Notes under the pieces: generated by a model
What the model was told of the DNA's origin: nothing
What the model saw: the letters and a program-made list of their open reading frames with translations, nothing else
Database searches by the model: none
Virus record (IMG/VR): IMGVR_UViG_2747842506_000001
Span: 1 to 64,000 of that record
DNA length: 64,000 nt
Source: a virus
Taxonomy: Duplodnaviria; Caudoviricetes
Reading direction: 5' to 3' (one strand)
Shown here: piece by piece, positions 7,277-63,188 of the stretch
How the letters are laid out: every line of letters begins with the position of its first letter
How positions within the stretch are numbered: position 1 is the first letter of the stretch
Made by a program: the position numbers and the translations under genes

Positions 7277-8744
7277 GGCTCTTCATCAACATGTGTGGGT
7301 GGCTTCGCCACCCTTTTTTGTTGACTTTCGCCTAAATTAAACAAAAAATGGGCTATTTTCTAAAATTTAATCGCAAAAAAAAACAGAAGAAAAAAGCCCA
7401 TGTCAAAATTATACAAATCCATCTTCAATGTCAACGGCTGTACTGTCGTCAAGCAGGAGCAAACCGACACCACGGTCACCATCACGGTAAGACTCACCAA
7501 GGGCAACGCCAGCAGGTGCGGCTGTTGCGGGCGAAAAGGGAAACTCTACGACAACGGCCGGGAACAGAGGATATGGCGGACGCTCGATCTCGGCACGAAA
7601 ATGGGCTTCATCAAGATGGACACCTACAGGGTGAAGTGCAGGAAGTGCGGCGTAAAAACCGTGAAGGTGCCGTGGGCAAGCCACAGGTCAGGCTTCACCG
7701 ACGCCTTCGAGCAGCAGGTCGCATGGGCCGTATGCAGCATGTCGAAAAAGGCTGTCGCAAAGCAGCTACGCATCGCCTGGAATACCGTGGGAGAAATCGC
7801 CGACCGCGTATGGGAACGCCTGGACACAAGGCCTATCAAGGCAGGCTGCATCTTCAGGCGCATAGGCATCGACGAGACCAGCTACAAGAAAGGGCACAAG
7901 TACATAACGGTGGTAGTGGATCACGACAGGCGCTGCGTGATCTGGGTGCACGAGGGCTACGGGAAGGAGGTGCTGGACATCTTCATGAGGGATCTCAGCG
8001 AAGAGCAGCGCAAGGGCGTGGAGCTTGTGACTTGTGATGGTGCCAAGTGGATAAGGTCAAGCATCGAGGAGTTCCTGCCCAATGCCGAGCGGTGCGTGGA
8101 CAGCTTCCATGTCGTACAGTGGGCGACAGATGCCCTGGACAAGGTCCGTGTGGAAGCCTGGAGGGAGGCCCGCAAGGAAAACCGCAATCCGAAACGGGGC
8201 CGAGGCAGGCCCACGAAGGACAGCGTCCCGAAGGACCGCACCGCGGAGGGGATAAAGAACTCCAGGTACGCTCTGGGCAAGGCTCCGGAAAACCTTAACG
8301 AAAGCCAGCAGAGAAAAATAGAGCTCATAGCCAGCCGCTATCCGCGTCTCTACAGGGCATACCAGCTCAAGGAGGAGCTGCGCATCATCCTGAAGATGGG
8401 CTATGCCGATGCCAGGGAAAATCTGGACAGGTGGCTGTGGCGGGCAAGTCACTCACGCATCGGCTCAGTAAAGGATCTGTACGCAAAGATCAAGCGCAAC
8501 TACGACGGAATCCTCAACACAATCAGGCTAGGCGTGTCAAACGCAAGGATCGAGGCGACGAACAACAAGATAAAGCTACTGATACGGACTGCCTATGGCT
8601 TCAGGAATATGAACAACATGCTGTCGCTGATAATGTTGAGCTGTTCCTATGTAGATGTAAAGATAGCCTACGAATGGGAATCGGAATCGAGAGAATCATC
8701 TAGCAAGGCTGCCTAAATGCTACCACACATATTGATGATGCCTC
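7277..8744 (+). mobile_element. ISL3-family IS, copy 1 (1468 bp)
   Basis: Ends GGCTCTTCATCAACATGTGTGG / CCACACATATTGATGATGCCTC; flanks ggaaaga / ggaaaaga (imperfect TSD). Confidence 0.95.
7400..8716 (+). CDS. ISL3 transposase
   Basis: zf-ISL3 CGCCG...CRKCG, IGIDE, DSFHVV, EATNNKIK..R.AYGFRN. Confidence 0.95.
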   Translation: MSKLYKSIFNVNGCTVVKQEQTDTTVTITVRLTKGNASRCGCCGRKGKLYDNGREQRIWRTLDLGTKMGFIKMDTYRVKCRKCGVKTVKVPWASHRSGFTDAFEQQVAWAVCSMSKKAVAKQLRIAWNTVGEIADRVWERLDTRPIKAGCIFRRIGIDETSYKKGHKYITVVVDHDRRCVIWVHEGYGKEVLDIFMRDLSEEQRKGVELVTCDGAKWIRSSIEEFLPNAERCVDSFHVVQWATDALDKVRVEAWREARKENRNPKRGRGRPTKDSVPKDRTAEGIKNSRYALGKAPENLNESQQRKIELIASRYPRLYRAYQLKEELRIILKMGYADARENLDRWLWRASHSRIGSVKDLYAKIKRNYDGILNTIRLGVSNARIEATNNKIKLLIRTAYGFRNMNNMLSLIMLSCSYVDVKIAYEWESESRESSSKAA

Positions 8745-12204: not shown

Positions 12205-13672
12205 GGCTCTTCATCAACATGTGTGGGTGGCTTCGCCACCCTTTTTTGTTGACTTTCGCCTAAATTAAACAAAAAATGGGCTATTTTCTAAAATTTAATC
12301 GCAAAAAAAAACAGAAGAAAAAAGCCCATGTCAAAATTATACAAATCCATCTTCAATGTCAACGGCTGTACTGTCGTCAAGCAGGAGCAAACCGACACCA
12401 CGGTCACCATCACGGTAAGACTCACCAAGGGCAACGCCAGCAGGTGCGGCTGTTGCGGGCGAAAAGGGAAACTCTACGACAACGGCCGGGAACAGAGGAT
12501 ATGGCGGACGCTCGATCTCGGCACGAAAATGGGCTTCATCAAGATGGACACCTACAGGGTGAAGTGCAGGAAGTGCGGCGTAAAAACCGTGAAGGTGCCG
12601 TGGGCAAGCCACAGGTCAGGCTTCACCGACGCCTTCGAGCAGCAGGTCGCATGGGCCGTATGCAGCATGTCGAAAAAGGCTGTCGCAAAGCAGCTACGCA
12701 TCGCCTGGAATACCGTGGGAGAAATCGCCGACCGCGTATGGGAACGCCTGGACACAAGGCCTATCAAGGCAGGCTGCATCTTCAGGCGCATAGGCATCGA
12801 CGAGACCAGCTACAAGAAAGGGCACAAGTACATAACGGTGGTAGTGGATCACGACAGGCGCTGCGTGATCTGGGTGCACGAGGGCTACGGGAAGGAGGTG
12901 CTGGACATCTTCATGAGGGATCTCAGCGAAGAGCAGCGCAAGGGCGTGGAGCTTGTGACTTGTGATGGTGCCAAGTGGATAAGGTCAAGCATCGAGGAGT
13001 TCCTGCCCAATGCCGAGCGGTGCGTGGACAGCTTCCATGTCGTACAGTGGGCGACAGATGCCCTGGACAAGGTCCGTGTGGAAGCCTGGAGGGAGGCCCG
13101 CAAGGAAAACCGCAATCCGAAACGGGGCCGAGGCAGGCCCACGAAGGACAGCGTCCCGAAGGACCGCACCGCGGAGGGGATAAAGAACTCCAGGTACGCT
13201 CTGGGCAAGGCTCCGGAAAACCTTAACGAAAGCCAGCAGAGAAAAATAGAGCTCATAGCCAGCCGCTATCCGCGTCTCTACAGGGCATACCAGCTCAAGG
13301 AGGAGCTGCGCATCATCCTGAAGATGGGCTATGCCGATGCCAGGGAAAATCTGGACAGGTGGCTGTGGCGGGCAAGTCACTCACGCATCGGCTCAGTAAA
13401 GGATCTGTACGCAAAGATCAAGCGCAACTACGACGGAATCCTCAACACAATCAGGCTAGGCGTGTCAAACGCAAGGATCGAGGCGACGAACAACAAGATA
13501 AAGCTACTGATACGGACTGCCTATGGCTTCAGGAATATGAACAACATGCTGTCGCTGATAATGTTGAGCTGTTCCTATGTAGATGTAAAGATAGCCTACG
13601 AATGGGAATCGGAATCGAGAGAATCATCTAGCAAGGCTGCCTAAATGCTACCACACATATTGATGATGCCTC
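12205..13672 (+). mobile_element. ISL3-family IS, copy 2
   Basis: Same ends as copy 1; 8-bp TSD GGTAAAAT. Confidence 0.95.
12328..13644 (+). CDS. ISL3 transposase
   Basis: Protein identical to copy 1. Confidence 0.95.
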   Translation: MSKLYKSIFNVNGCTVVKQEQTDTTVTITVRLTKGNASRCGCCGRKGKLYDNGREQRIWRTLDLGTKMGFIKMDTYRVKCRKCGVKTVKVPWASHRSGFTDAFEQQVAWAVCSMSKKAVAKQLRIAWNTVGEIADRVWERLDTRPIKAGCIFRRIGIDETSYKKGHKYITVVVDHDRRCVIWVHEGYGKEVLDIFMRDLSEEQRKGVELVTCDGAKWIRSSIEEFLPNAERCVDSFHVVQWATDALDKVRVEAWREARKENRNPKRGRGRPTKDSVPKDRTAEGIKNSRYALGKAPENLNESQQRKIELIASRYPRLYRAYQLKEELRIILKMGYADARENLDRWLWRASHSRIGSVKDLYAKIKRNYDGILNTIRLGVSNARIEATNNKIKLLIRTAYGFRNMNNMLSLIMLSCSYVDVKIAYEWESESRESSSKAA

Positions 13673-13710: not shown

Positions 13711-14460
13711 ATGCAAAAGAAAAATCCGCTGCTTCTGGTGAAGCGGCTACTACTCCACTACCTAAAATACTTACTCAAGACGACTATGCGCGGGGAGTTT
13801 GATCTCCCGGAAATGCATTGTCATACGAAGGTGCTGCCAGATTACATCGCCGTATATCAGCAGCCTGGTGATTATCATCGCACTCCTTTTACTGCTGTTT
13901 CATTTTTCAGTTATGATGATACGTTTGATGGGCAGCGGGGACTTTACAATGCTATCTACTATGACAATAAACGAGACCTGGAAAAATTTAGGAAACGGTT
14001 CAAGGGCGTTCGATTTGCCATCGCTCCAGATTGTTCGCAGTGCGGTGATGTTGACCACATTGAAAACTTGTATAGGTTGAAGCGATCTCGAATTATTTCC
14101 TTATGGTTAAACCAGGAAATGGGGATATCTGTGATTCCGCTGATTACCTTTCCGAACTTGAAACATCTTGCTTGGGTGCTTGAGGGCCTGCAGGATTGTA
14201 GCGTAGTTGCGTTTAGTACCAAAGGTTGTGTTGACGATCCCTACGAAAAGAGTGTTCTAATGGAGGCTGTAAGGGTAACCGTAGATACACTGAAGCTAAA
14301 GTCAATTCTTGTTTATGATGTGTGCAAGGATAACCATGCTGTTGATGAAATTTTCGCTTACGCACGCCAGAAAGGAATCGACGTTAAGGTTCCACCCAAT
14401 ATGCTGAAGGAGAGGAATATTGTTCTTGCAAAGGAAAGAAGGGGGAAGAAATGCGCGTAA
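13711..14460 (+). CDS. DUF4417-family protein
   Basis: VSFFSYDDTFD, IAPDCS..GD, R.R....W.....GI.VIP, VAFSTKG pattern. Confidence 0.7.
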   Translation: MQKKNPLLLVKRLLLHYLKYLLKTTMRGEFDLPEMHCHTKVLPDYIAVYQQPGDYHRTPFTAVSFFSYDDTFDGQRGLYNAIYYDNKRDLEKFRKRFKGVRFAIAPDCSQCGDVDHIENLYRLKRSRIISLWLNQEMGISVIPLITFPNLKHLAWVLEGLQDCSVVAFSTKGCVDDPYEKSVLMEAVRVTVDTLKLKSILVYDVCKDNHAVDEIFAYARQKGIDVKVPPNMLKERNIVLAKERRGKKCA

Positions 14461-15038
14461 GCTGTACTAATCTTGCCAGTGGCACTAGGGAGAGTGTTTA
14501 CCTTAGTCTTGAACAACTTGAAAACAAAAAGCATGTAGAAGAAATCGAAAATGAAATCGAACAGCTGTTTCGGCAGCTCAATTCCGAAGAGCCGAGGGAA
14601 CCTGCTGCAATTTTGAACCAACTGGAAAATACCCAGTCGTTTACAAAAGAAGCCTTAAATCATATATTTAGGGGAGAGGTGAACGAAAAAGGAGAATTAA
14701 AAGGATATCATCATGAAGGCGTTCGTGGAAATACGGCGAGGATAATTCCCGGTTCCAAAACAGCTCCTGATAAAAATGGAGTTTACTATGGCAAAGTAAT
14801 GAAGGAATATCACGGGAAAATTCTGGTTAAAGCTCAAGAATCCTCCTTCTTTCCTCGAAATTGGTCTCCACAACAGGTGGTGAACGAAATCAATCACTCT
14901 TATTCAAACGCAACCCCAGTCAATCCACATAGACCAACCATTCTTGAAGGAGTGTCTTTATCGGGAATAACGATACGAGTTATCGTTCATAAAAACACAG
15001 GTAAAATAAGGACAGCTTTTCCGATTAGGGGGAAATAA
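14451..15038 (+). CDS. Bacterial EndoU ribonuclease toxin
   Basis: HIFRGE...GYHH, NGVY, K.SSFFP.NWS..QV, I.TAFP. Confidence 0.85.
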   Translation: MRVSCTNLASGTRESVYLSLEQLENKKHVEEIENEIEQLFRQLNSEEPREPAAILNQLENTQSFTKEALNHIFRGEVNEKGELKGYHHEGVRGNTARIIPGSKTAPDKNGVYYGKVMKEYHGKILVKAQESSFFPRNWSPQQVVNEINHSYSNATPVNPHRPTILEGVSLSGITIRVIVHKNTGKIRTAFPIRGK

Positions 15039-15041
15039 ATT

Positions 15042-15428
15042 ATGAAGTACACTATTGAACACATTGTCCATGACGGAGAAAAGACGGATATCATTTTCGA
15101 TTTTGGTAAGGAACATTCCTTGATAAGTGTATTCCTTTCCAGTGAATGTGATTTGTTGGGGACTTTTCTGGAACACATTGATCTAGTCCTTTCAGATAAA
15201 TTTGAAAGAGCTGAGGTGAGTGGAAATATTTGCTTTGTCGAGATTCATAAAGATTGTTCAAGAGTAGAATATCTTTATCCAGATGAAGATGATGTGGCTG
15301 AGGGTATAATCAACGAGGAAACTGTCAGTACAGTCGAATTAAAACAGCTGATAGTGGAATTCGTTGCTAAACGCGAGGAATTCTTTAGGTTGAAAAAATT
15401 GGGTAAGGGTAGTCAAACGGCTTCTTGA
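15042..15428 (+). CDS. Probable immunity protein for EndoU toxin
   Basis: Acidic 128-aa ORF 3 bp downstream of toxin; SGN.C.VEI motif. Confidence 0.65.
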   Translation: MKYTIEHIVHDGEKTDIIFDFGKEHSLISVFLSSECDLLGTFLEHIDLVLSDKFERAEVSGNICFVEIHKDCSRVEYLYPDEDDVAEGIINEETVSTVELKQLIVEFVAKREEFFRLKKLGKGSQTAS

Positions 15429-33923: not shown

Positions 33924-35391
33924 GGCTCTTCATCAACATGTGTGGGTGGCTTCGCCACCCTTTTTTGTTGACTTTAGCCTAAATTAAACAAAAAATGGGC
34001 TATTTTCTAAAATTTAATCGCAAAAAAAAACAGAAGAAAAAAGCCCATGTCAAAATTATACAAATCCATCTTCAATGTCAACGGCTGTACTGTCGTCAAG
34101 CAGGAGCAAACCGACACCACGGTCACCATCACGGTAAGACTCACCAAGGGCAACGCCAGCAGGTGCGGCTGTTGCGGGCGAAAAGGGAAACTCTACGACA
34201 ACGGCCGGGAACAGAGGATATGGCGGACGCTCGATCTCGGCACGAAAATGGGCTTCATCAAGATGGACACCTACAGGGTGAAGTGCAGGAAGTGCGGCGT
34301 AAAAACCGTGAAGGTGCCGTGGGCAAGCCACAGGTCAGGCTTCACCGACGCCTTCGAGCAGCAGGTCGCATGGGCCGTATGCAGCATGTCGAAAAAGGCT
34401 GTCGCAAAGCAGCTACGCATCGCCTGGAATACCGTGGGAGAAATCGCCGACCGCGTATGGGAACGCCTGGACACAAGGCCTATCAAGGCAGGCTGCATCT
34501 TCAGGCGCATAGGCATCGACGAGACCAGCTACAAGAAAGGGCACAAGTACATAACGGTGGTAGTGGATCACGACAGGCGCTGCGTGATCTGGGTGCACGA
34601 GGGCTACGGGAAGGAGGTGCTGGACATCTTCATGAGGGATCTCAGCGAAGAGCAGCGCAAGGGCGTGGAGCTTGTGACTTGTGATGGCGCCAAGTGGATA
34701 AGGTCAAGCATCGAGGAGTTCCTGCCCAATGCCGAACGGTGCGTGGACAGCTTCCATGTCGTGCAGTGGGCGACGGATGCCCTGGACAAGGTCCGTGTGG
34801 AAGCCTGGAGGGAGGCCCGCAAGGAACGCTGCAATCCAAAACGGGGCCGAGGCAGGCCCACGAAGGACAGCGTCCCGAAGGACCGCACCGCGGAGGGGAT
34901 AAAGAACTCCAGGTACGCTCTGGGCAAGGCTCCGGAAAACCTTAACGAAAGCCAGCAGAGAAAAATAGAGCTCATAGCCAGCCGCTATCCGCGTCTCTAC
35001 AGGGCATACCAGCTCAAGGAGGAGCTGCGCATCATCCTGAAGATGGGCTATGCCGATGCCAGGGAAAATCTGGACAGGTGGCTGTGGCGGGCAAGTCACT
35101 CACGCATCGGCCCAGTAAAGGATCTGTACGCAAAGATCAAGCGCAACTACGACGGAATCCTCAACACAATCAGGCTAGGCGTGTCAAACGCAAGGATCGA
35201 GGCGACGAACAACAAGATAAAGCTACTGATACGGACTGCCTATGGCTTCAGGAATATGAACAACATGCTGTCGCTGATAATGTTGAGCTGTTCCTATGTA
35301 GATGTAAAGATAGCCTACGAATGGGAATCGGAATCGAGAGAATCATCTAGCAAGGCTGCCTAAATGCTTCCACACATGTTGATGATGCCTC
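33924..35391 (+). mobile_element. ISL3-family IS, copy 3
   Basis: Same ends; 8-bp TSD AAATAATT. Confidence 0.95.
34047..35363 (+). CDS. ISL3 transposase
   Basis: Near-identical to copy 1 (ERCN / GP variant). Confidence 0.95.
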   Translation: MSKLYKSIFNVNGCTVVKQEQTDTTVTITVRLTKGNASRCGCCGRKGKLYDNGREQRIWRTLDLGTKMGFIKMDTYRVKCRKCGVKTVKVPWASHRSGFTDAFEQQVAWAVCSMSKKAVAKQLRIAWNTVGEIADRVWERLDTRPIKAGCIFRRIGIDETSYKKGHKYITVVVDHDRRCVIWVHEGYGKEVLDIFMRDLSEEQRKGVELVTCDGAKWIRSSIEEFLPNAERCVDSFHVVQWATDALDKVRVEAWREARKERCNPKRGRGRPTKDSVPKDRTAEGIKNSRYALGKAPENLNESQQRKIELIASRYPRLYRAYQLKEELRIILKMGYADARENLDRWLWRASHSRIGPVKDLYAKIKRNYDGILNTIRLGVSNARIEATNNKIKLLIRTAYGFRNMNNMLSLIMLSCSYVDVKIAYEWESESRESSSKAA

Positions 35392-35421
35392 AAATAATTG
35401 CAAAAAAATAGAGGATTGAAT

Positions 35422-35571
35422 ATGGGATTCTTCAAGTTATTAGTCGCCATTGGAGCTGCCGCATACGGAATTTCCCCGGTAGACATAATTCCCGATGTCG
35501 TTCCAGTTGTTGGCTGGGCGGATGATGTGGGGGTGATTTTGACTGCATTAGCTATTATAGCGAAAGCGTAG
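35422..35571 (+). CDS. YkvA / DUF1232-family small membrane protein
   Basis: Manually translated: ...AYGISPVDIIPDVVPVVGWADD...; RBS GAGG. Confidence 0.85.
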   Translation: MGFFKLLVAIGAAAYGISPVDIIPDVVPVVGWADDVGVILTALAIIAKA

Positions 35572-35591
35572 AAAATAATATATATTAGGGA

Positions 35592-35698
35592 TGAAGAACG
35601 TACTGAGTTAGTGGGACGAGGTTATCCACTTGAGCCAACTACTTCTTGAAAGCAAGTGCCTGTATGCAGGAGTTTACCGCCCTGCCTTACGTTCTTCA
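35592..35698 (+). ncRNA. Structured ncRNA, four-way junction, copy 1
   Basis: 11-bp closing stem TGAAGAACGTA/TACGTTCTTCA, three internal hairpins, TATATT upstream, terminator 35709-35736. Confidence 0.75.
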
Positions 35699-35872
35699 CT
35701 TTATTATAAAAGACGTTCCTGATGGAGCGCCTTTTTGTATGATTTTTTTTAACGTTAAATGCCTAGCAAACCCGCATTAAACAAGGGTTTCGTTTTCTTT
35801 ATGTTTTATAGGGGCTGTTTTTGAACCTGGATAAATCTTGATTTTCTCCAAGGAAAGTGGTATATTAGTGGT

Positions 35873-35970
35873 ATAGGATATGCAAGTAAGCGTAAAGTCC
35901 GAAACGCTTGGGAATCTCTAGGAAACTAGAACTTCGTATGGTGAGGTAACGGGCCACCTGCATGTCCTAT
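35873..35970 (+). ncRNA. Structured ncRNA, four-way junction, divergent copy
   Basis: Closing stem ATAGGATATGCA/TGCATGTCCTAT; hairpins AAGCGT/ACGCTT, TCTAG-GAAA-CTAGA, GGTG/CACC; promoter TTGATT-17-TATATT. Confidence 0.7.
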
Positions 35971-36089
35971 TTTGTTTTATTTAGGTTGTTTTGATGCTTA
36001 GGTAAATCTTAGGGTGATTTTCACCTTTTTGTCGTCAATTTCTGTAGTGACCATTTGCATTTCTCTAAGAAAAGTGGTATGTTGATGGT

Positions 36090-36200
36090 TGAAGAACGTA
36101 TGAGTTAGTGGAAAGAGGTTTACCACTTCGGAAGCTAAGCTTTTTGAACGAAGCCACAGTACCGTATGCAAGAGTTCGCCGCCTTGTCTTACGTTCTTCA
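36090..36200 (+). ncRNA. Structured ncRNA, four-way junction, copy 2
   Basis: Same closing stem as copy 1 with compensatory changes inside; promoter TTGCAT-17-TATGTT; terminator 36210-36240. Confidence 0.75.
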
Positions 36201-36245
36201 CTTTATTATAAAAGACGTTCTTGATGGAGCGTCTTTTTTTGTATA

Positions 36246-36940
36246 ACTGAAAACTACCGGCTAGGCCGGTAGTTCCGTAAAAGCCTTCTGGCGGTCATGA
36301 AAAAAGAAATCCTTTGATTAATATTGAAATGCGGTCTGCCAACTGCATCACAATAAAATCAAAGGATTTAAAATGAATGATAGAAATAAATCAACAGCCC
36401 ATACCACATGGAATTGTAAGTACCATATCGTGTTCGCACCCAAGTTTAGAAGGAAAATTCTATACAATCAGAAACGAGAGCTTGTAGGAAGAATTCTCAG
36501 AAAATTGTGCGAATGGAAAGATGTGGAAATAATAGAGGCCGAAGTCTGTCCAGACCATATTCACATGCTGGTCGCCATACCGCCGAAACTCTCCGTTTCG
36601 AGTTTCATGGGGTATTTGAAAGGAAAGAGCAGCCTGGAATTGTATGACACGATTCCTGAATTGCAGAATAAGTACAGGAACCGAGTCTTTTGGTGCCGAG
36701 GATATTATGTTGACACGGCAGGAAAAAACGCAGACCGAATTAAGGCGTATATCCGGCAACAGTTAGAGGAGGACAAACTAGGAGAACAACAGTCAATGTT
36801 TGGCAAGTAGTGCCCGTTTACGGGCGGCCTAGTAAGGACCCTAGCAGGTGGCAGATCGACGTGCGTGCCCTTGCACGCAGCTAGTATTGTAGGGCTACGC
36901 CCGTATATGAAGAACCACCGGCTTCGCCGGTGGGTGCCTT
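36246..36940 (+). mobile_element. IS200/IS605-family element (tnpA only)
   Basis: Terminal hairpins aactaccggc-tag-gccggtagtt and accggc-ttc-gccggt; ends approximate. Confidence 0.85.
36373..36810 (+). CDS. tnpA: IS200 Y1 (HUH) transposase
   Basis: YHIVFAPKFRR, DHIHML, GYLKGKSS, FWCRGYYVDT. Confidence 0.95.
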   Translation: MNDRNKSTAHTTWNCKYHIVFAPKFRRKILYNQKRELVGRILRKLCEWKDVEIIEAEVCPDHIHMLVAIPPKLSVSSFMGYLKGKSSLELYDTIPELQNKYRNRVFWCRGYYVDTAGKNADRIKAYIRQQLEEDKLGEQQSMFGK

Positions 36941-38050: not shown

Positions 38051-38752
38051 TTATGGCTTCGGCGGCGAATATGCCATAGGAGGTGCAGGAGCACCAGTTG
38101 CAGCTGTTGCGTGGGTATGGCCCAGGAACGACAGAGTAGGCGTGGAAAAGTCCGCGCCTTTTACGTTTCCCGACGCTTCTACATCGCCCTTGCTGCTGAT
38201 GTTTCCATCGGAGCTGATTTCCCCTGTGGTTTCAATGTCGCCATCTACGCTTAAAGCTCCTGTGATTTCCACGTTTTCCGCAGAAAGTTCAACTTTTTTC
38301 GCATTTATTTTGACATTTCCCTCACGATCAACCGATATAGTGGTGGAGGCGTCCTCGTTTATACGCCTCATGGGAATCGCCAGAAGATTCAGAAGGTCAT
38401 TCCCGGAAAAACTCATGGGGAGCGCAGCATCTTCGCTCCAGGTTTCCTTCTTCCAGTTTCGTATATCGCGACTGCTGCTTATGCAAAGAACGGTATCGCC
38501 TGCATCCAGCTCATATTCCACATGAACTGTCTTTGTGCCGATCCATAGGACTGGCACATTACGGATTGCCATCAGCTTGTCGTCCTTCAAAGGTTCCATT
38601 TGCATATTGCGCAGACAGTTTCTCACGCTGGGACGAACATTGACTGTTCCATCATCGTTTACGGCATCAATGACAGCGGGGAAGGCTGTTTCAAAGTCCT
38701 CCATCTTATTGTCAAAGAAACGGTCCAAAATTTTTGCGATGCTGTTAGCCAT
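38051..38752 (-). CDS. Baseplate central spike (Gp138-like)
   Basis: TAFPAVI, VNVRP, NVPV, GD..L; C-terminal beta repeats and HTH metal-tip motif. Confidence 0.8.
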   Translation of the reverse strand: MANSIAKILDRFFDNKMEDFETAFPAVIDAVNDDGTVNVRPSVRNCLRNMQMEPLKDDKLMAIRNVPVLWIGTKTVHVEYELDAGDTVLCISSSRDIRNWKKETWSEDAALPMSFSGNDLLNLLAIPMRRINEDASTTISVDREGNVKINAKKVELSAENVEITGALSVDGDIETTGEISSDGNISSKGDVEASGNVKGADFSTPTLSFLGHTHATAATGAPAPPMAYSPPKP

Positions 38753-50640: not shown

Positions 50641-52108
50641 AAATGACCTCTTGTGTAAATATAATAAATCCAAGCAAGAAATGCAAATCAACCGTACCCA
50701 CAAAAGCAGGAAATGTAGCTTATTTCTTTAAAATCAACGCATTCCTGAAGGCCCTGTCAATCTTGAAATGGTTTGTTTCCTGGTAGATTTCTTCCTTCTG
50801 TCCGCCAAGACCAATGCTACGCAGATAAACATTTCGCGGATTGTTGTTGGTCTGGATTCCAGACAGGCGGATATAACGGTTAGAGGCGTTGGTCGTCGTA
50901 AAAATCAAGGAATCCTTACGGATCATTTCAAGAGGGCGCAGGTTGTGTGACGTGAACAGCAGGCGACCCTTGGCCTTGTCATCTATGATATTCAGGATTT
51001 CTCCCAACAGGTATTCATAGATACCCGCATCCAGTTCATCAACAGCCAGGAATGTCGCCGGATTGTTGTAAACGGCAATAAGGATGCTCAGAATGGAGAT
51101 AATCTTCTTGATGCCTTCGGATTCGTAACGTAGAGGAATTGCGTCGGCATCGCCCTTTTTGGAAAGAAGCTCGAAGCGGACACCTTCTTCTCCCTTTGGA
51201 GTCTGCTGGGCACCCTTGTTGTCCACAACGACATTGAGGCCAGGAACGATTTCCTGCAGAACCACGTTCATTTCATTGAAGGACTTGTCGATAATGTCGA
51301 AAAGCTCCTTGACGACGATGTTTGCGCCCTGTAGGGAAATCTGGACGGTTCCGAAGGACAGGTCCCTGTTTTCCTTATGCAGGAAATTGAACGGGAATGC
51401 GAAGTCGATGTTGAACGGACTTTTTCCGTTGCTCTTGATAACAAACAGGTTGACCTGCGCAAAGAAACGGATTCTGTCAATTACGGAAAGCCTGGCGGCG
51501 GGGCTTTTGTCGGAAGCCTTCATAAAGGCGTCGAAGTCCCTGGAGAACAGCATTGACCTGTGTTCGCGGGAAGTGACTTCCTTTTGGACTTCAAACTTGA
51601 TTGAAGATTCCTTGGTTTCAAAAGCGAAAGCGAAGTCCTGGGCCGGGCAAATCCAGTCATTCTGCATGGACTTGTCGATGCTAACCAGAACCTTCGAAGC
51701 CTTTCCCTTTTTCCTTTCGGAAACCTGTTCAAAGAAAACCTCTACACCTTCCTGCTCAATTCGCTTGATTCGGAAGGTATATTCCACAATGCCTTCTGCT
51801 TTGCCATCTGCGTCAAGAACGTCAAACGCGACAGTGCATTCGGCGAAATCCTTTCCGCACATGATCAAGTTCTCGTAGGAATTAGGAAGCGCTTCGCCCC
51901 TTGCGACCTTCTGGAACATTTCCAGGGCGTCAATAAGGGCGGTCTTTCCGGAGCCGTTCTGGCCATAGACCCCAAGAATGTTGTTCTTGAAGTCGACAGA
52001 GCCGGAAACCACGTTCTTGAAGTTCGTGAGAGCTATAGACTTGATCTGGACGAAAGTGTCTTATCCTGAAAAAAGTTGACACTATACAAAAAGGCAGGTA
52101 TAGTGCAA

Positions 52109-58200: not shown

Positions 58201-59668
58201 GGCTCTTCATCAACATGTGTGGGTGGCTTCGCCACCCTTTTTTGTTGACATTCGCCTAAATTAAACAAAAAATGGGCTATTTTCTAAAATTTAATCGCAA
58301 AAAAAAACAGAAGAAAAAAGCCCATGTCAAAATTATACAAATCCATCTTCAATGTCAACGGCTGTACTGTCGTCAAGCAGGAGCAAACCGACACCACGGT
58401 CACCATCACGGTAAGACTCACCAAGGGCAACGCCAGCAGGTGCGGCTGTTGCGGGCGAAAAGGGAAACTCTACGACAACGGCCGGGAACAGAGGATATGG
58501 CGGACGCTCGATCTCGGCACGAAAATGGGCTTCATCAAGATGGACACCTACAGGGTGAAGTGCAGGAAGTGCGGCGTAAAAACCGTGAAGGTGCCGTGGG
58601 CAAGCCACAGGTCAGGCTTCACCGACGCCTTCGAGCAGCAGGTCGCATGGGCCGTATGCAGCATGTCGAAAAAGGCTGTCGCAAAGCAGCTACGCATCGC
58701 CTGGAATACCGTGGGAGAAATCGCCGACCGCGTATGGGAACGCCTGGACACAAGGCCTATCAAGGCAGGCTGCATCTTCAGGCGCATAGGCATCGACGAG
58801 ACCAGCTACAAGAAAGGGCACAAGTACATAACGGTGGTAGTGGATCACGACAGGCGCTGCGTGATCTGGGTGCACGAGGGCTACGGGAAGGAGGTGCTGG
58901 ACATCTTCATGAGGGAACTCAGCGAAGAGCAGCGCAAGGGCGTGGAGCTTGTGACTTGTGATGGCGCCAAGTGGATAAGGTCAAGCATCGAGGAGTTCCT
59001 GCCCAATGCCGAACGGTGCGTGGACAGCTTCCATGTCGTGCAGTGGGCGACGGATGCCCTGGACAAGGTCCGTGTGGAAGCCTGGAGGGAGGCCCGCAAG
59101 GAACGCTGCAATCCAAAACGGGGCCGAGGCAGGCCCACGAAGGACAGCGTCCCGAAGGACCGCACCGCGGAGGGGATAAAGAACTCCAGGTACGCTCTGG
59201 GCAAGGCTCCGGAAAACCTTAACGAAAGCCAGCAGAGAAAAATAGAGCTCATAGCCAGCCGCTATCCGCGTCTCTACAGGGCATACCAGCTCAAGGAGGA
59301 GCTGCGCATCATCCTGAAGATGGGCTATGCCGATGCCAGGGAAAATCTGGACAGGTGGCTGTGGCGGGCAAGTCACTCACGCATCGGCTCAGTAAAGGAT
59401 CTGTACGCAAAGATCAAGCGCAACTACGACGGAATCCTCAACACAATCAGGCTAGGCGTGTCAAACGCAAGGATCGAGGCGACGAACAACAAGATAAAGC
59501 TACTGATACGGACTGCCTATGGCTTCAGGAATATGAACAACATGCTGTCGCTGATAATGTTGAGCTGTTCCTATGTAGATGTAAAGATTGCCTACGAATG
59601 GGAATCGGAATCGAGAGAATCATCTAGCAAGGCTGCCTAAATGCTTCCACACATGTTGATGATGCCTC
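58201..59668 (+). mobile_element. ISL3-family IS, copy 4
   Basis: 8-bp TSD AATACTTT; transposase 58324-59640. Confidence 0.95.
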
Positions 59669-59697: not shown

Positions 59698-61165
59698 GGC
59701 TCTTCATCAACATGTGTGGGTGGCTTCGCCACCCTTTTTTGTTGACTTTAGCCTAAATTAAACAAAAAATGGGCTATTTTCTAAAATTTAATCGCAAAAA
59801 AAAACAGAAGAAAAAAGCCCATGTCAAAATTATACAAATCCATCTTCAATGTCAACGGCTGTACTGTCGTCAAGCAGGAGCAAACCGACACCACGGTCAC
59901 CATCACGGTAAGACTCACCAAGGGCAACGCCAGCAGGTGCGGCTGTTGCGGGCGAAAAGGGAAACTCTACGACAACGGCCGGGAACAGAGGATATGGCGG
60001 ACGCTCGATCTCGGCACGAAAATGGGCTTCATCAAGATGGACACCTACAGGGTGAAGTGCAGGAAGTGCGGCGTAAAAACCGTGAAGGTGCCGTGGGCAA
60101 GCCACAGGTCAGGCTTCACCGACGCCTTCGAGCAGCAGGTCGCATGGGCCGTATGCAGCATGTCGAAAAAGGCTGTCGCAAAGCAGCTACGCATCGCCTG
60201 GAATACCGTGGGAGAAATCGCCGACCGCGTATGGGAACGCCTGGACACAAGGCCTATCAAGGCAGGCTGCATCTTCAGGCGCATAGGCATCGACGAGACC
60301 AGCTACAAGAAAGGGCACAAGTACATAACGGTGGTAGTGGATCACGACAGGCGCTGCGTGATCTGGGTGCACGAGGGCTACGGGAAGGAGGTGCTGGACA
60401 TCTTCATGAGGGATCTCAGCGAAGAGCAGCGCAAGGGCGTGGAGCTTGTGACTTGTGATGGCGCCAAGTGGATAAGGTCAAGCATCGAGGAGTTCCTGCC
60501 CAATGCCGAACGGTGCGTGGACAGCTTCCATGTCGTGCAGTGGGCGACGGATGCCCTGGACAAGGTCCGTGTGGAAGCCTGGAGGGAGGCCCGCAAGGAA
60601 CGCTGCAATCCAAAACGGGGCCGAGGCAGGCCCACGAAGGACAGCGTCCCGAAGGACCGCACCGCGGAGGGGATAAAGAACTCCAGGTACGCTCTGGGCA
60701 AGGCTCCGGAAAACCTTAACGAAAGCCAGCAGAGAAAAATAGAGCTCATAGCCAGCCGCTATCCGCGTCTCTACAGGGCATACCAGCTCAAGGAGGAGCT
60801 GCGCATCATCCTGAAGATGGGCTATGCCGATGCCAGGGAAAATCTGGACAGGTGGCTGTGGCGGGCAAGTCACTCACGCATCGGCCCAGTAAAGGATCTG
60901 TACGCAAAGATCAAGCGCAACTACGACGGAATCCTCAACACAATCAGGCTAGGCGTGTCAAACGCAAGGATCGAGGCGACGAACAACAAGATAAAGCTAC
61001 TGATACGGACTGCCTATGGCTTCAGGAATATGAACAACATGCTGTCGCTGATAATGTTGAGCTGTTCCTATGTAGATGTAAAGATAGCCTACGAATGGGA
61101 ATCGGAATCGAGAGAATCATCTAGCAAGGCTGCCTAAATGCTTCCACACATGTTGATGATGCCTC
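59698..61165 (+). mobile_element. ISL3-family IS, copy 5
   Basis: 8-bp TSD AAAAAAAT; transposase 59821-61137. Confidence 0.95.
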
Positions 61166-63188
61166 AAAAAAATCGATGTTTTCTACGTTGCCTTTAGTGG
61201 TGGAAAAGACAGTGTCGTTGCATTAGACCTTGTTCAAAGAGCATTGCCTCATAATGAATTCAAAGTCTTGTTTGGAGATACTCGCATGGAGTTTCCGGAC
61301 ACATATAAGACCGTTGATAAAATCGAGCTTCTTTGCAAAGACATGGATGTTGAATTCCTTAGGGCTCGCTCAGACTATGAACCGGATTTTACCTGGTCAA
61401 AATTTGGCCCCCCCGCTGTAACAAACAGATGGTGCTGCACAGTACATAAAACAACACCCCAGATAAGGCTCTTAAAAAAAGCCTCAAAAAATGAAAAGTT
61501 TACTGGAATGGCTTTTACAGGAATTCGCGGAGACGAAAGTGCTAGCCGTAGCGAGTACGATTCTGTAAGTTTAGGAGAAAAACATAACGGACAATACAGC
61601 TGCCACGCAATTCTTGATTGGAATTCTGTTGAACTTTTCACGTATATTTATCAAAATCATCTTATCTTAGGTGAAAGTTATAAGCGTGGAAATTCAAGGG
61701 CGGGCTGCTTGGTGTGTCCTATGTCGTCCGGAAAACACGAGTTTTTCAAGGCGAGCTGCTATCCTGAAGAAGTTGATTCTTTTGTAGAAAGAATTTCATC
61801 GACTAGTGGGAAGCATTTCACTAACAGTGAAATGAAAAAATTCATTGAAGATGAAAATTGGAAGTCAAGAAAATCAGGACGAGAATTAAATTTTGGATTC
61901 GACAAACATATTTTTGTCGACAATAAAGATGCTCTATCTATCAACATAGAGGGCTCGTTAAATCCGGTTTGGAAGGAATGGTGCAAAACAATAGGCTTGT
62001 TAGTCGAAATTTCGAGTAATGAATACCAATTGGAATTTAAGAAAAAAGAATATACAATCAAGTTTGAAACTGTCGAAGGAAACAGTGTCTTGACTTTTCC
62101 GAATTGCGAAAGATCTCGCGATGATATGGAATTTTGGTCACTGTTCAAAAGCGTTATTATAAAAAGTCTTTATTGTGTTTATTGCGGTGTATGCGAAGCA
62201 GAATGCTCTTTTGGCTGTATTGACATGTCTGAAGGATTGAAAATAAAAGATGACTGTAAACATTGTCATAAATGCCACGAAGTTCATGAACATTGCGTGC
62301 GCTATAATTCAATAAGAAACAGAATAGGAACGGAGTCAAAAATGAAAAAAGGTCTTGGAAGATATTTCACGTTCGGAATTCAAGGTGAATGGCTGAGGAT
62401 ATTCCATCAGTATAAGGGAACTGCAGAATTCTGGCATAGCGATGGCAATGGAAAAGTTCATAACAAGAAAAAACAAGCCTTTGCAAATTTCTTAAAGGAT
62501 GCTGACATCGTTTTCCAAAACAAGAAACTTGGCGGCGATTCCTATGAAAAACTCGACATGACCGCTTTTGGAAATAAAATTCTTTCATTCAATTCAACCG
62601 AAGATACTTCTCTTTGGGCACTGATTGTTTGCAATTTGGCGTATGCTCCTGATTTCAATTGGCTAATCAAAACAGTAAAAATTAACGAAACTATTGAGCC
62701 GAAGCAAATGGAACTTTTGCTTAACGATGTTATGCCTAATGATGTAAAAGGAGCTGGCAAAAGAAATGTTGTTGATGGCCTAAAAAATATTTTAATAACA
62801 ACGCCGATTGGTAAGGAAATTGGATTGGGAAATTGTGATTACGAAATGAAAAATGAAAAGATATTCTTCAAATCGTTAACAAGAACTTCCTGGGATAATC
62901 CAAATCCTGTGGTTATTCTTTATTCTCTTTATAAGTTCGCTGAAGCTTGTGGAGACTATTACCAGTTTACATTGTCAAGACTTTTAAATCATGATATTGA
63001 TAGTGCAGGCGTATCTCCAACAGAGATATTCGGTTTAGACGCAGACCAAATGAAAAAGATTTTGACAGGTTTGTCTGCAAATTATCCTGATTTTATTTCT
63101 GTCAGCTTCACGCTCGATCTAGACAATATCAATTTGCGTAAAGACAAAAAATCTTCCGATGTTTTGGATTTGATCTAAGGAGTTTACA

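What the first reader, a model, noticed from the sequence alone, without database searches (positions are those of the whole stretch)
35581..36240. Array of three independently transcribed four-way-junction ncRNAs with no cognate protein
Seen: three ~100-110-nt units, each a long closing stem enclosing three hairpins, with GTAT conserved just before hairpin 3. Copies at 35592 and 36090 share TGAAGAACGTA/TACGTTCTTCA and a near-identical terminator, but covary inside (ACTT/AAGT vs GCTT/AAGC; GCAGG/CCTGC vs GCAAG/CTTGT). The copy at 35873 has a different sequence with the same fold. Loop 1 and loop 3 can pair, with polarity flipped between copies: GGT-ACC and GGT-GCC versus GTCCG-CGGGC. Two units have homologous promoters (TTGATT or TTGCAT, 17 nt, TATATT or TATGTT). 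Inference: the layout recalls DUF3800-associated RNA motifs (from memory, unverified), but no DUF3800 or other toxin gene is nearby. A prophage stockpiling diverged variants suggests RNA decoys or antitoxin mimics against RNA-inhibited defence toxins, i.e. an RNA-based anti-defence cassette.
Basis: partly seen in the sequence, partly recalled or inferred. Interest (0 to 1): 0.9.

Follow-up and report, generated by a model that had tools for sequence, protein, structure and literature searches.

The report
Orphan phage RNA array, new family
Three small folded RNA genes in this prophage belong to an undescribed RNA family that, in related Mu-like phages, is swapped together with the RNase-like tail of a head protein, so the RNAs may be that protein's specific partner or inhibitor.

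Summary
Window 35591-35702, 35871-35975 and 36089-36204 (+) are three members of one structured RNA family. A model built from A-type copies alone finds the dissimilar middle copy full length. Over 8 distinct sequences, 98.8% of cells pair and 13 of 22 pairs show double changes. No Rfam family and no tRNA matches.

Two claims are weaker. Arm 2 is stable in only 2 of 8 sequences. Loop1-loop3 pairing is not above chance.

The new point is a cognate protein. In 5 related Mu-like (pro)virus records the RNA gene is single-copy. It lies antisense between the MuF-like minor head gene and a gpG-like gene. It is exchanged as one sharply bounded block with the last ~145 MuF codons. That domain looks like a BECR/PBECR RNase.

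The window's three copies are orphans. They have no such domain nearby, one carries a gpG-start remnant, and they sit between junction repeats and two IS elements.

Best reading (0.35): RNA partner or inhibitor of the MuF C-terminal domain, stockpiled as orphan "immunity". Expression and binding are not shown.

The parts
35581..35586 (+). Unit A: -10-like TATATT; the -35 region is poor and lies in the end of the DUF1232 gene
   Evidence: Read. The promoter scan did not call it.
35591..35702 (+). Unit A RNA: closing stem GAAGAACGTA/TACGTTCTTC, hairpin 1 AGTGG/CCACT, variable arm 2, hairpin 3 GCAGG-A-G...C-CCTGC
   Evidence: CM hit of 119 bits; fold; pair counts.
35708..35737 (+). Hairpin plus T-run after unit A (terminator-like)
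   Evidence: stem 35714-35729, then T-run; I1 arm 35708-35735.
35799..35839 (+). Junction element, copy 1. An imperfect ~35-40-nt palindrome (GTTTTAT...ATAAATC) that bounds the unit B cassette on the left.
   Evidence: D2. It aligns with the repeats that flank the unit in L118. Contigs of other runs join here to 35974 with other sequence between.
35838..35866 (+). Unit B promoter-like site: TTGATT, 17 nt, TATATT, with TG before the -10
   Evidence: The motif TTTCTCYNNNRAAAGWGGTATRTT is shared with 6 homologous loci.
35871..35975 (+). Unit B RNA: closing stem ATAGGATATGCA/TGCATGTCCTAT followed by a U-rich run
   Evidence: Found by the A-type model at E=0.0025. The minimum-energy fold is a four-way junction. 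85% identical to the unit of G804/L051.
35970..36010 (+). Junction element, copy 2. It bounds the unit B cassette on the right.
   Evidence: D2, 71% to copy 1; repeated in an RNA-run contig ('goes back 35').
36007..36060 (-). Remnant of the first 18 codons of a gpG-like morphogenesis gene (MQMVTTEIDDKKVKITLR), then a stop
   Evidence: tblastn against the N-termini of the gpG-like proteins of G803 and G806: E=2e-6, 67% identity.
36055..36083 (+). Unit C promoter-like site: TTGCAT, 17 nt, TATGTT
   Evidence: D3, 80% identical to unit B's promoter. It matches the shared promoter motif.
36089..36204 (+). Unit C RNA. Same closing stem as unit A; arm 2 and hairpin 3 differ.
   Evidence: CM hit of 116.7 bits. 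85% identical to the unit of G807/L122.
36210..36243 (+). Terminator-like hairpin (12 pairs) plus T-run after unit C
34047..35363 (+). ISL3 transposase gene; left boundary of the segment. One of five copies in the record.
   Evidence: Pfam DDE_Tnp_ISL3, E=9e-69. The five copies are 435-438 of 438 residues identical.
36252..36810 (+). IS200 element; right boundary of the segment. It has a 5' structured leader and tnpA.
   Evidence: Rfam STnc490 at 57.4 bits against a gathering score of 56, at 36252-36365. Y1_Tnp at 36373-36810, E=5e-38.

Best explanation
The three units are genes of a previously undescribed family of ~105-nt structured RNAs carried by Mu-like (pro)phages of an animal-gut bacterium, probably Fibrobacter.

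In its native place the gene is single-copy. It has its own promoter, and its closing stem plus U-run serves as terminator. It lies on the opposite strand in a ~130-nt gap between the MuF-like minor head protein gene and the gpG-like morphogenesis gene. It is exchanged between otherwise near-identical phages as one block with the last ~145 codons of the MuF gene. Those codons encode a rare alpha+beta domain with BECR/PBECR-like features: an invariant His in the first helix region and an invariant Thr in the last strand.

My reading is that the RNA is the specific partner of that domain. Most likely it is an inhibitor, an RNA 'immunity' or antitoxin that keeps a virion-borne RNase quiet in the producing cell.

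The window's array is then a set of three orphan partner RNAs. They were cut out of such phages with only a few flanking bases and strung between junction repeats in an unrelated prophage. There they would neutralise the MuF C-terminal domains that superinfecting Mu-like phages bring in.

Shown: the RNA family and its fold, its strand, its native context, the block exchange, and the orphan state.
Inferred: binding, inhibition, RNase activity, the immunity role, and expression.
For: - Family and fold.
- Strand: 12 G-U cells against only 2 unpaired cells on the + strand. Promoters and U-runs are also on that strand.
- Native context: 5 of 5 related records have one copy each, between genes matching Phage_Mu_F/phrog_220 and Phage_tail_S/phrog_26, downstream of Portal_Mu.
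- Block exchange, G803 against G806: DNA identity is 83-98% up to about MuF codon 315. It falls to 30-72% over the MuF C-terminus plus the RNA. It is 85-100% from the RNA promoter onward. For that pair the protein and RNA identities are MuF-N 95%, MuF-C 50%, RNA 64% and gpG 97%. G805 against G807 shows the same shape.
- Domain: 2 of 20 aligned relatives hit PBECR3 (E=1e-5, under the cut-off) and MuF_C. The AlphaFold2 model has pLDDT 87. The best PDB matches, though weak, are RelE and CdiA-CT of Klebsiella 342 (E=0.07-0.27). BFVD gives 3 hits at E<=1e-3, plus rows named 'Phage MuF C-terminal domain'.
- Literature, passages read: Mu gp30 carries a C-terminal PBECR domain predicted to bind or cut RNA (PMC5512222). 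MuF toxin genes are usually followed by a small immunity ORF (PMC5576092).
- Orphan state: the window record has no A8-like domain and there is a gpG-start remnant before unit C. winC is 85% identical to the G807 unit and winB 85% to the G804 unit.
Against: - There is no evidence of RNA-protein binding, of toxicity, or of RNase activity.
- The PBECR link is below Pfam's cut-off and rests on one intermediate protein. The five phage proteins themselves hit only Phage_Mu_F. The PDB fold matches are not significant.
- Only 5 native loci are known, forming two or three lineages. The correlation of RNA with MuF-C (rho=0.83) is no better than that with MuF-N (rho=0.79), and the pairs are not independent.
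- A recombination hot spot could move two unrelated neighbours together.
- The gene is on the opposite strand to MuF, unlike known immunity genes.
- Discrete transcripts are not shown. Contigs from RNA runs cross promoters and could be DNA or read-through.
Confidence: 0.35

Rival explanations
1. Cis-antisense regulator. The RNA, transcribed against the late operon in the F-G gap, pairs with the late mRNA and controls expression or stability of the MuF or gpG messages. The orphan copies in the window would silence the same region of incoming related phages in trans, as an antisense immunity array.
For: In 5 of 5 native loci the gene is antisense to the F-G intergenic region and overlaps the MuF stop codon by about 9 nt. 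It has its own promoter next to the gpG start. The orphan copies would be complementary to the late mRNAs of phages carrying the same type.
Against: Simple antisense action does not need a conserved fold. Here stems are kept through compensatory changes and G-U pairs on one strand. The RNA does not cover the gpG ribosome-binding site, which lies under the RNA's promoter (read). This reading does not explain why the MuF C-terminal domain changes together with the RNA.
Confidence: 0.2
2. Virion or assembly RNA. The RNA is bound by the MuF C-terminal domain as a cofactor or cargo: packaged with the head protein, or needed for head assembly, loosely like phi29 pRNA. The orphan copies would poison the assembly of related phages.
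For: The gene sits in the head module next to portal and MuF genes. It co-varies with a domain predicted in print to bind RNA in Mu gp30. Two loops could pair.
Against: It is transcribed against the late operon from what looks like a constitutive promoter. Phage Mu itself has no room for such a gene, since F and G overlap by 4 nt. Loop-loop pairing is not above chance. No Rfam family matched.
Confidence: 0.1
3. One reading: tRNA-shaped decoys or antitoxin mimics against host defence toxins (anticodon nucleases, RNA-inhibited toxins). That is, an anti-defence cassette unrelated to MuF.
For: The outline is cloverleaf-like, with a variable middle arm. Diverged variants are stockpiled. Cassettes are swapped between strains.
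Against: No tRNA call. Arm-2 loops are mostly tetraloops, not 7-nt anticodon loops. The tight linkage to the MuF C-terminus goes unexplained. No defence toxin gene is consistently nearby: DUF3800 in 0 of 5 records, TROVE in 0 of 5, RVT_1 in 1 of 5 and 23 kb away.
Confidence: 0.1
4. Trans-acting moron sRNAs that regulate host genes during lysogeny, with arm 2 as the variable seed.
For: Each unit has its own promoter and terminator, which is moron-like. Arm 2 is hypervariable.
Against: No consistent complementary targets of 10 nt or more were found in the phages' own records. The best was a 14-mer for unit B that is not repeated for its near-twin in G804. Host genomes could not be searched. The block exchange with MuF-C goes unexplained.
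Confidence: 0.1

Closest known systems
MuF polymorphic toxin / immunity modules of temperate phages (Jamet et al. 2017, PMC5576092; Zhang et al. 2012, PMC3482391; MuF-C/PBECR of Iyer et al. 2017, PMC5512222)
   Same: A conserved N-terminal MuF domain sits after the portal gene. The C-terminal domain is variable and swapped by recombination together with whatever lies immediately downstream. BECR-fold RNase domains are among the known MuF cargoes (passages read).
   Different: The slot after the variable domain holds an RNA gene on the opposite strand, not a small immunity ORF. The C-terminal domain reaches PBECR3/MuF_C only through a sub-threshold intermediate. Toxicity is untested.
Type III toxin-antitoxin systems (ToxIN and relatives; recalled, not read here)
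   Same: A structured RNA would neutralise an endoribonuclease by direct binding. Both are phage-related.
   Different: Type III antitoxins are tandem short repeats upstream of the toxin gene on the same strand and are processed by the toxin. Here there is one ~105-nt multi-stem RNA, convergent with the protein gene, and the protein is a virion component.
DUF3800-I, drum, skipping-rope and FuFi-1: structured RNAs with their own terminators, some tied to one protein domain in either orientation (Weinberg et al. 2017, PMC5737381)
   Same: A stand-alone, highly structured RNA that ends in a terminator, is not a riboswitch, and is linked to a specific protein domain encoded nearby on either strand (passages read).
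   Different: No match to any Rfam model and DUF3800 in 0 of 5 records. The associated domain here is the MuF C-terminus. The supplement listing all 224 motifs could not be opened.
Orphan immunity gene arrays next to polymorphic toxin loci (recalled from the CDI/Rhs literature)
   Same: An array of diverged protective modules without their toxins, with remnants of neighbouring genes and signs of cassette exchange.
   Different: The modules are RNA genes. They lie in an unrelated prophage between two IS elements and are separated by ~35-nt palindromic junction repeats.
tRNA and tRNA-like RNAs (bacterial Y RNA YrlA; recalled)
   Same: A four-arm outline, with a 5'/3' closing stem and two hairpins whose loops could touch.
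   Different: The closing stem is 10-12 bp and has no CCA. There is no T-loop or anticodon-loop geometry, no ARAGORN call, and no TROVE/Rsr gene in 0 of 5 records.

Membership tests
tRNA | Cloverleaf with a 7-bp acceptor stem, a 7-nt anticodon loop and a T-loop, as detected by tRNA finders | tested here: not met
   ARAGORN finds 0 genes in the window. No Rfam tRNA hit at E<=10 on 35400-36400.
DUF3800-associated RNA motifs (I-XI) | Match to one of the Rfam models | tested here: not met
   No such hit at gathering score, at E<=10 on the units, or at E<=5 on 5 homologous loci. That these motifs are in Rfam 15 is recalled, not checked.
DUF3800-associated RNA motifs (I-XI) | A DUF3800 (PF12686) gene nearby | tested here: not met
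   0 of 5 records (G000, G803-G806) match. The same search rings in 5 of the 14 control genomes.
Bacterial Y RNA (YrlA-like) | Encoded near an Rsr/Ro60 (TROVE) gene | tested here: not met
   TROVE is found in 0 of 5 records. The control rings in 2 genomes.
Retron ncRNA | A reverse transcriptase gene adjacent to the RNA | tested here: not met
   RVT_1 is found in 1 of 5 records (G803), about 23 kb from the RNA.
Type III toxin-antitoxin | Tandem direct RNA repeats directly upstream of the toxin gene on the same strand | tested here: not met
   Native loci have one copy each, convergent with the protein gene.
MuF polymorphic toxin module | N-terminal MuF domain encoded just after the portal gene | tested here: met
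   Phage_Mu_F at E=1e-20 to 2e-22 in 5 of 5 neighbouring proteins. Portal_Mu lies upstream in G803.
MuF polymorphic toxin module | A variable C-terminal domain exchanged independently of the N-terminus | tested here: met
   Identity by quarters of the protein and the DNA identity profile.
MuF polymorphic toxin module | The C-terminal domain belongs to a known toxin family and is toxic | tested here: inconclusive
   PBECR3/MuF_C is reached only through one relative below the cut-off. BECR-fold PDB hits are weak. BFVD hits to MuF-C and polyvalent proteins have TM 0.55-0.66. Toxicity cannot be tested with these tools.
MuF polymorphic toxin module | A small immunity ORF (<150 aa) immediately downstream | tested here: not met
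   The next feature is the RNA gene on the other strand. After it comes a conserved 172-179-aa gpG-like gene.
Any Rfam 15 family | Covariance-model match | tested here: not met
   The only gathering-level hit in the window is STnc490, on the IS200 leader. Nothing hits the units or their homologues.

The most novel reading that the evidence does not exclude
A phage-borne RNA acts as the immunity factor of a virion-delivered BECR-type RNase domain fused to the MuF head protein. This would be the first polymorphic toxin-like module whose immunity partner is a structured RNA. Prophages then collect orphan immunity RNAs, in cassette arrays bounded by short palindromic junction sites, as an RNA-based superinfection shield.
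Probability: 0.3. Interest if true: 0.9.

Novelty: new variant of a known kind. Interest (0 to 1): 0.72.

Why it matters
Structured RNAs tied to one protein domain are rare, and for most of them (DUF3800-I, drum, skipping-rope) no function is known. This one comes with a concrete partner that can be tested: the C-terminal domain of the MuF head protein. That domain was predicted in print to bind or cut RNA, but no RNA was known for it.

If the RNA inhibits the domain, three things follow. Polymorphic toxin-immunity logic would extend from proteins to RNA. MuF-C would gain a function. And prophages would be seen to stockpile RNA immunity modules.

Even if that reading fails, the family is a clean new structured RNA with covariation support, from a poorly studied rumen and gut lineage.

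Tried and rejected
Similar DNA:
- Nothing similar in E. coli genomes, phages or plasmids.

Pattern scans that found nothing:
- The closing-stem pair in viral contigs.
- The 3' tail.
- The junction element.
- A DUF1232 protein search in viral contigs: 101 pattern matches, 0 confirmed.

Pattern scans that found mostly chance matches:
- The degenerate promoter 19-mer gave 76 loci. Only L051 proved real. Model R2 found nothing at E<0.1 in the other 75 loci plus 23 of the 29 genome loci; the best was E=0.6. L101-L106 were not searched.
- My one genome-contig scan used a palindromic pattern and returned 29 chance inverted repeats in unrelated phyla. That was a design error and it cost the only scan of species genomes.

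Host search:
- 401 Bacteroidota genomes gave only short weak DNA matches in 5.
- 400 Gammaproteobacteria genomes gave ISL3 relatives of at most 40% identity, in 35 of them.
- The terminase, ISL3 and IS200 protein searches did not name a host, nor did the two Atlas look-ups.
- The Fibrobacter assignment rests on one named member of the IS200 transposase cluster. I first suspected Bacteroidota from the integrase arm domain and dropped that because most genes have Shine-Dalgarno sites. No Fibrobacter genome could be reached.

Other tests:
- Antisense targets in the phages' own records: nothing consistent.
- Loop-loop pairing: not above chance.
- MuF C-end remnants next to the window units: tblastn not significant. 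I withdrew my earlier reading of the D2 repeats as such remnants in favour of a junction element.
- The RNA/MuF-C rank correlation does not discriminate.
- PDB sequence search for the domain: nothing at E<0.1.
- Reads laid on the region: all four runs were contigs, so no transcript ends and no expression claim. Uncovered stretches in the RNA runs are not evidence.
- Literature searches turned up no description of this RNA. They cover only the held library, and supplements were closed.
Full report
WHAT IS THERE. The window is the first 64 kb of an 80,080-bp provirus record with 47% G+C. The finding lies in a short segment between two insertion sequences. On the left is an ISL3 transposase gene at 34047-35363, one of five nearly identical copies in the record. 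On the right is an IS200 whose leader matches Rfam STnc490 (36252-36365, 57.4 bits against a gathering score of 56), followed by tnpA at 36373-36810. Between them are a 57-aa DUF1232 gene (35398-35571) and the three RNA units. Baseplate and tail genes on the minus strand surround the segment.

THE OBSERVATION. Units A (35591-35702) and C (36089-36204) share the closing stem and the 3' part. Unit B (35871-35975) has a different sequence. Each folds better than shuffles (z = -2.2 to -2.8). ARAGORN finds no tRNA. Rfam 15 has nothing on the units even at E<=10.

A covariance model built only from four A-type sequences finds every B-type sequence full length. With filters off in a 96.5-kb search, E is 7e-5 for L131 and L132, 1e-4 for L130, 0.0025 for unit B and 0.08 for L051. 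It finds no other copy in the window. A-type and B-type also share the 5' single-stranded motif (Y)RAGTWA, hairpin 1 and the following CTT-GG. So the three units are one family.

HOMOLOGUES.
- Metagenome scan: 4 loci, 2 real (L118 and L120, with the same unit).
- Viral scans: one search gave 7 loci, 2 real (L122, L123). One search gave 8 loci, 6 real (L122, L123, L130, L131, L132, L051). One search gave 4 loci, all already known. These were read.
- Together with the window this gives 8 distinct sequences.
- The IS200 transposase belongs to a 90% cluster with one member named Fibrobacter sp.. Sequencing runs that hold the stretch are animal gut and faeces samples. The host is therefore probably Fibrobacter, on thin evidence.

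STRUCTURE. On the 8 sequences aligned to the model, 98.8% of 171 cells form standard pairs. 13 of 22 pairs change on both sides. 0 of 500 shuffles reach these values. Partners slid by 1-3 columns give 32-53% paired and 1-2 such pairs. That alignment is model-fitted, so these numbers lean towards the structure. The MAFFT-based alignments give the same stems, with 4 and 7 doubly changed pairs.

There are 12 G-U cells and only 2 unpaired cells, so the + strand is the folded one.

Arm 2 beats shuffles in only 2 of 8 sequences; it is a hypervariable, loosely paired arm. Loop1-loop3 complementarity of 4-5 bp is common in shuffled loops, with a single compensatory change in its favour.

NATIVE CONTEXT. 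Model R2 finds exactly one copy in each of the 5 related virus records. The gene order is always large terminase, portal (Portal_Mu), a MuF-like protein of 447-461 aa, the RNA on the opposite strand, a 172-179-aa gene matching Phage_tail_S/phrog_26 (the family of Mu G), and then further head genes. These are Mu-like phages.

The RNA's -35 region overlaps the start codon of the gpG-like gene. The conserved TTTCTCC in the 'promoter' is that gene's ribosome-binding site on the other strand (read). The closing stem is followed directly by six or seven T, so it can serve as the terminator. It overlaps the MuF stop codon by about 9 nt. In phage Mu itself F and G overlap by 4 nt, so there is no room for such a gene.

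THE KEY RESULT. G803 and G806 are 83-98% identical in DNA through the first ~315 MuF codons. They are 30-72% identical across the last ~145 codons plus the RNA gene. They are 85-100% identical from the RNA promoter onward. For that pair the identities are MuF-N 95%, MuF-C 50%, RNA 64% and gpG-like 97%. G805 against G807 shows the same profile. So the MuF C-terminal domain and the RNA gene are exchanged as one cassette.

THE DOMAIN.
- It is rare. There are 4 close relatives among 5.8 billion sequences, and a profile finds 19 clusters among 1.84 billion representatives.
- Pfam sees only Phage_Mu_F in the five proteins. Two of 20 aligned relatives hit PBECR3 and MuF_C; one of them, P0042, hits PBECR3 at E=1e-5 (25.9 bits against a cut-off of 30) and MuF_C at E=1e-4.
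- The AlphaFold2 model is confident (pLDDT 87, pTM 0.83). It shows helices followed by a beta meander.
- Foldseek's best PDB rows are RelE and the CdiA-CT toxin of Klebsiella 342, both BECR-fold RNases, but with E of only 0.07-0.27.
- In BFVD, 3 rows reach E<=1e-3 (a minor capsid protein, a polyvalent 'Nuclease' and an uncharacterised protein). Rows 11, 13 and 28 are named 'Phage MuF C-terminal domain'.
- Iyer et al. 2017 (passages read) state that Mu gp30 ends in a PBECR domain. They describe the active site as a His in the N-terminal helix plus a C-terminal Thr/Ser. They predict RNA binding for inactive versions and RNase activity for active ones. In my alignment H36 (in the RIxH helix) and T115 (last strand) are invariant.
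- The link to BECR RNases is therefore plausible but not proven.

THE WINDOW'S ARRAY.
- The window record has no such domain. Its own 881-aa MuF protein shares nothing with these beyond the MuF domain.
- Just upstream of unit C lie the first 18 codons of a gpG-like gene, followed by a stop (36060-36007, E=2e-6). So the unit was lifted from an F-G gap.
- winC is 85% identical to the G807 unit and winB 85% to the G804 unit. winA is a third type.
- Unit B is bounded by two copies of a ~35-40-nt imperfect palindrome (D2). The same element flanks the unit in metagenome locus L118, which also has no MuF gene beside it.
- Contigs of other runs join the left element to the right one with 204-222 other letters between, and repeat the right element after 145 letters. 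So other strains carry other cassettes between the same junctions.
- All runs laid were contigs, so expression is not shown.

MECHANISM. I commit at 0.35 to this reading. The RNA is the specific partner of the MuF C-terminal BECR-like domain, most likely an inhibitor. The array is a stock of orphan inhibitors that blunt the domains injected by superinfecting Mu-like phages.

Shown: the family, the fold, the strand, the context, the cassette exchange and the orphan state. Inferred: binding, inhibition, enzymatic activity, expression and benefit.

The remaining 0.15 is for something unforeseen.

COMPARISON WITH KNOWN SYSTEMS. It is not a tRNA, not a DUF3800 motif, not a Y RNA, not a retron RNA, not a type III antitoxin and not any Rfam family, all by tests run here. 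The locus meets two defining features of MuF polymorphic toxin modules and fails one, the downstream immunity ORF. In kind it resembles the domain-associated structured RNAs of Weinberg et al. 2017 (passages read).

VERDICT. This is a real, new structured RNA family with an unexpected and testable protein link. Interest 0.72.

Noticed in passing
window 13711-15428 (+): Three + strand genes converge on the end of the window's own 881-aa MuF gene: DUF4417 (13711-14460), a bacterial EndoU nuclease domain protein (14451-15038, E=1e-23), and a 128-aa ORF with no family (15042-15428). This looks like a toxin-immunity pair beside a MuF gene, about 20 kb from the RNA array.
   Followed up: partly
window 35799-35839 and 35970-36010; L118 267-300, 488-523, 1868-1900: A ~35-nt imperfect palindrome (GTTTTAT...ATAA[A/G]AC, with an inner small hairpin) flanks RNA cassettes in two unrelated contexts and marks the points where other strains carry different cassettes. 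It could be a site for a recombinase. No enzyme was identified.
   Followed up: partly
window 7400-8716, 12328-13644, 34047-35363, 58324-59640, 59821-61137: Five copies of one ISL3 transposase gene, 435-438 of 438 residues identical, in an 80-kb provirus record. The closest plasmid-borne relative is only 49% identical.
   Followed up: partly
L118 100-250: Upstream of the first junction repeat in this metagenome locus lies another GC-rich stretch with several inverted repeats. It may be a different structured RNA cassette (read).
   Followed up: no
window 61244-63178 and L107 (G000 63189-72415): A 644-aa protein with a PAPS-reductase domain is followed by ORFs of 1396, 760, 479 and 376 aa. This is possibly a DNA-modification or defence island at the right end of the record.
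   Followed up: no
window 50720-52012 (-): A 430-aa AAA_21 / AbiEii-type ATPase within the prophage.
   Followed up: no
window 38051-38752 (-): The Pfam name of the matched family (PF18352) is printed masked as 'xxxxx_N' in the tool output. It is a phage protein N-terminal domain next to the baseplate hub gene.
   Followed up: no
L081, L082, L087, L092, L098, L101, L102 (one Planctomycetota MAG); L085, L099, L104 (Nocardioides): The inverted-repeat pattern GAAGAACGTA...TACGTTCTTC occurs 8 times in one MAG and 3 times in another genome. These are probably repeat elements of those genomes. R2 found no family member in the ones searched.
   Followed up: partly
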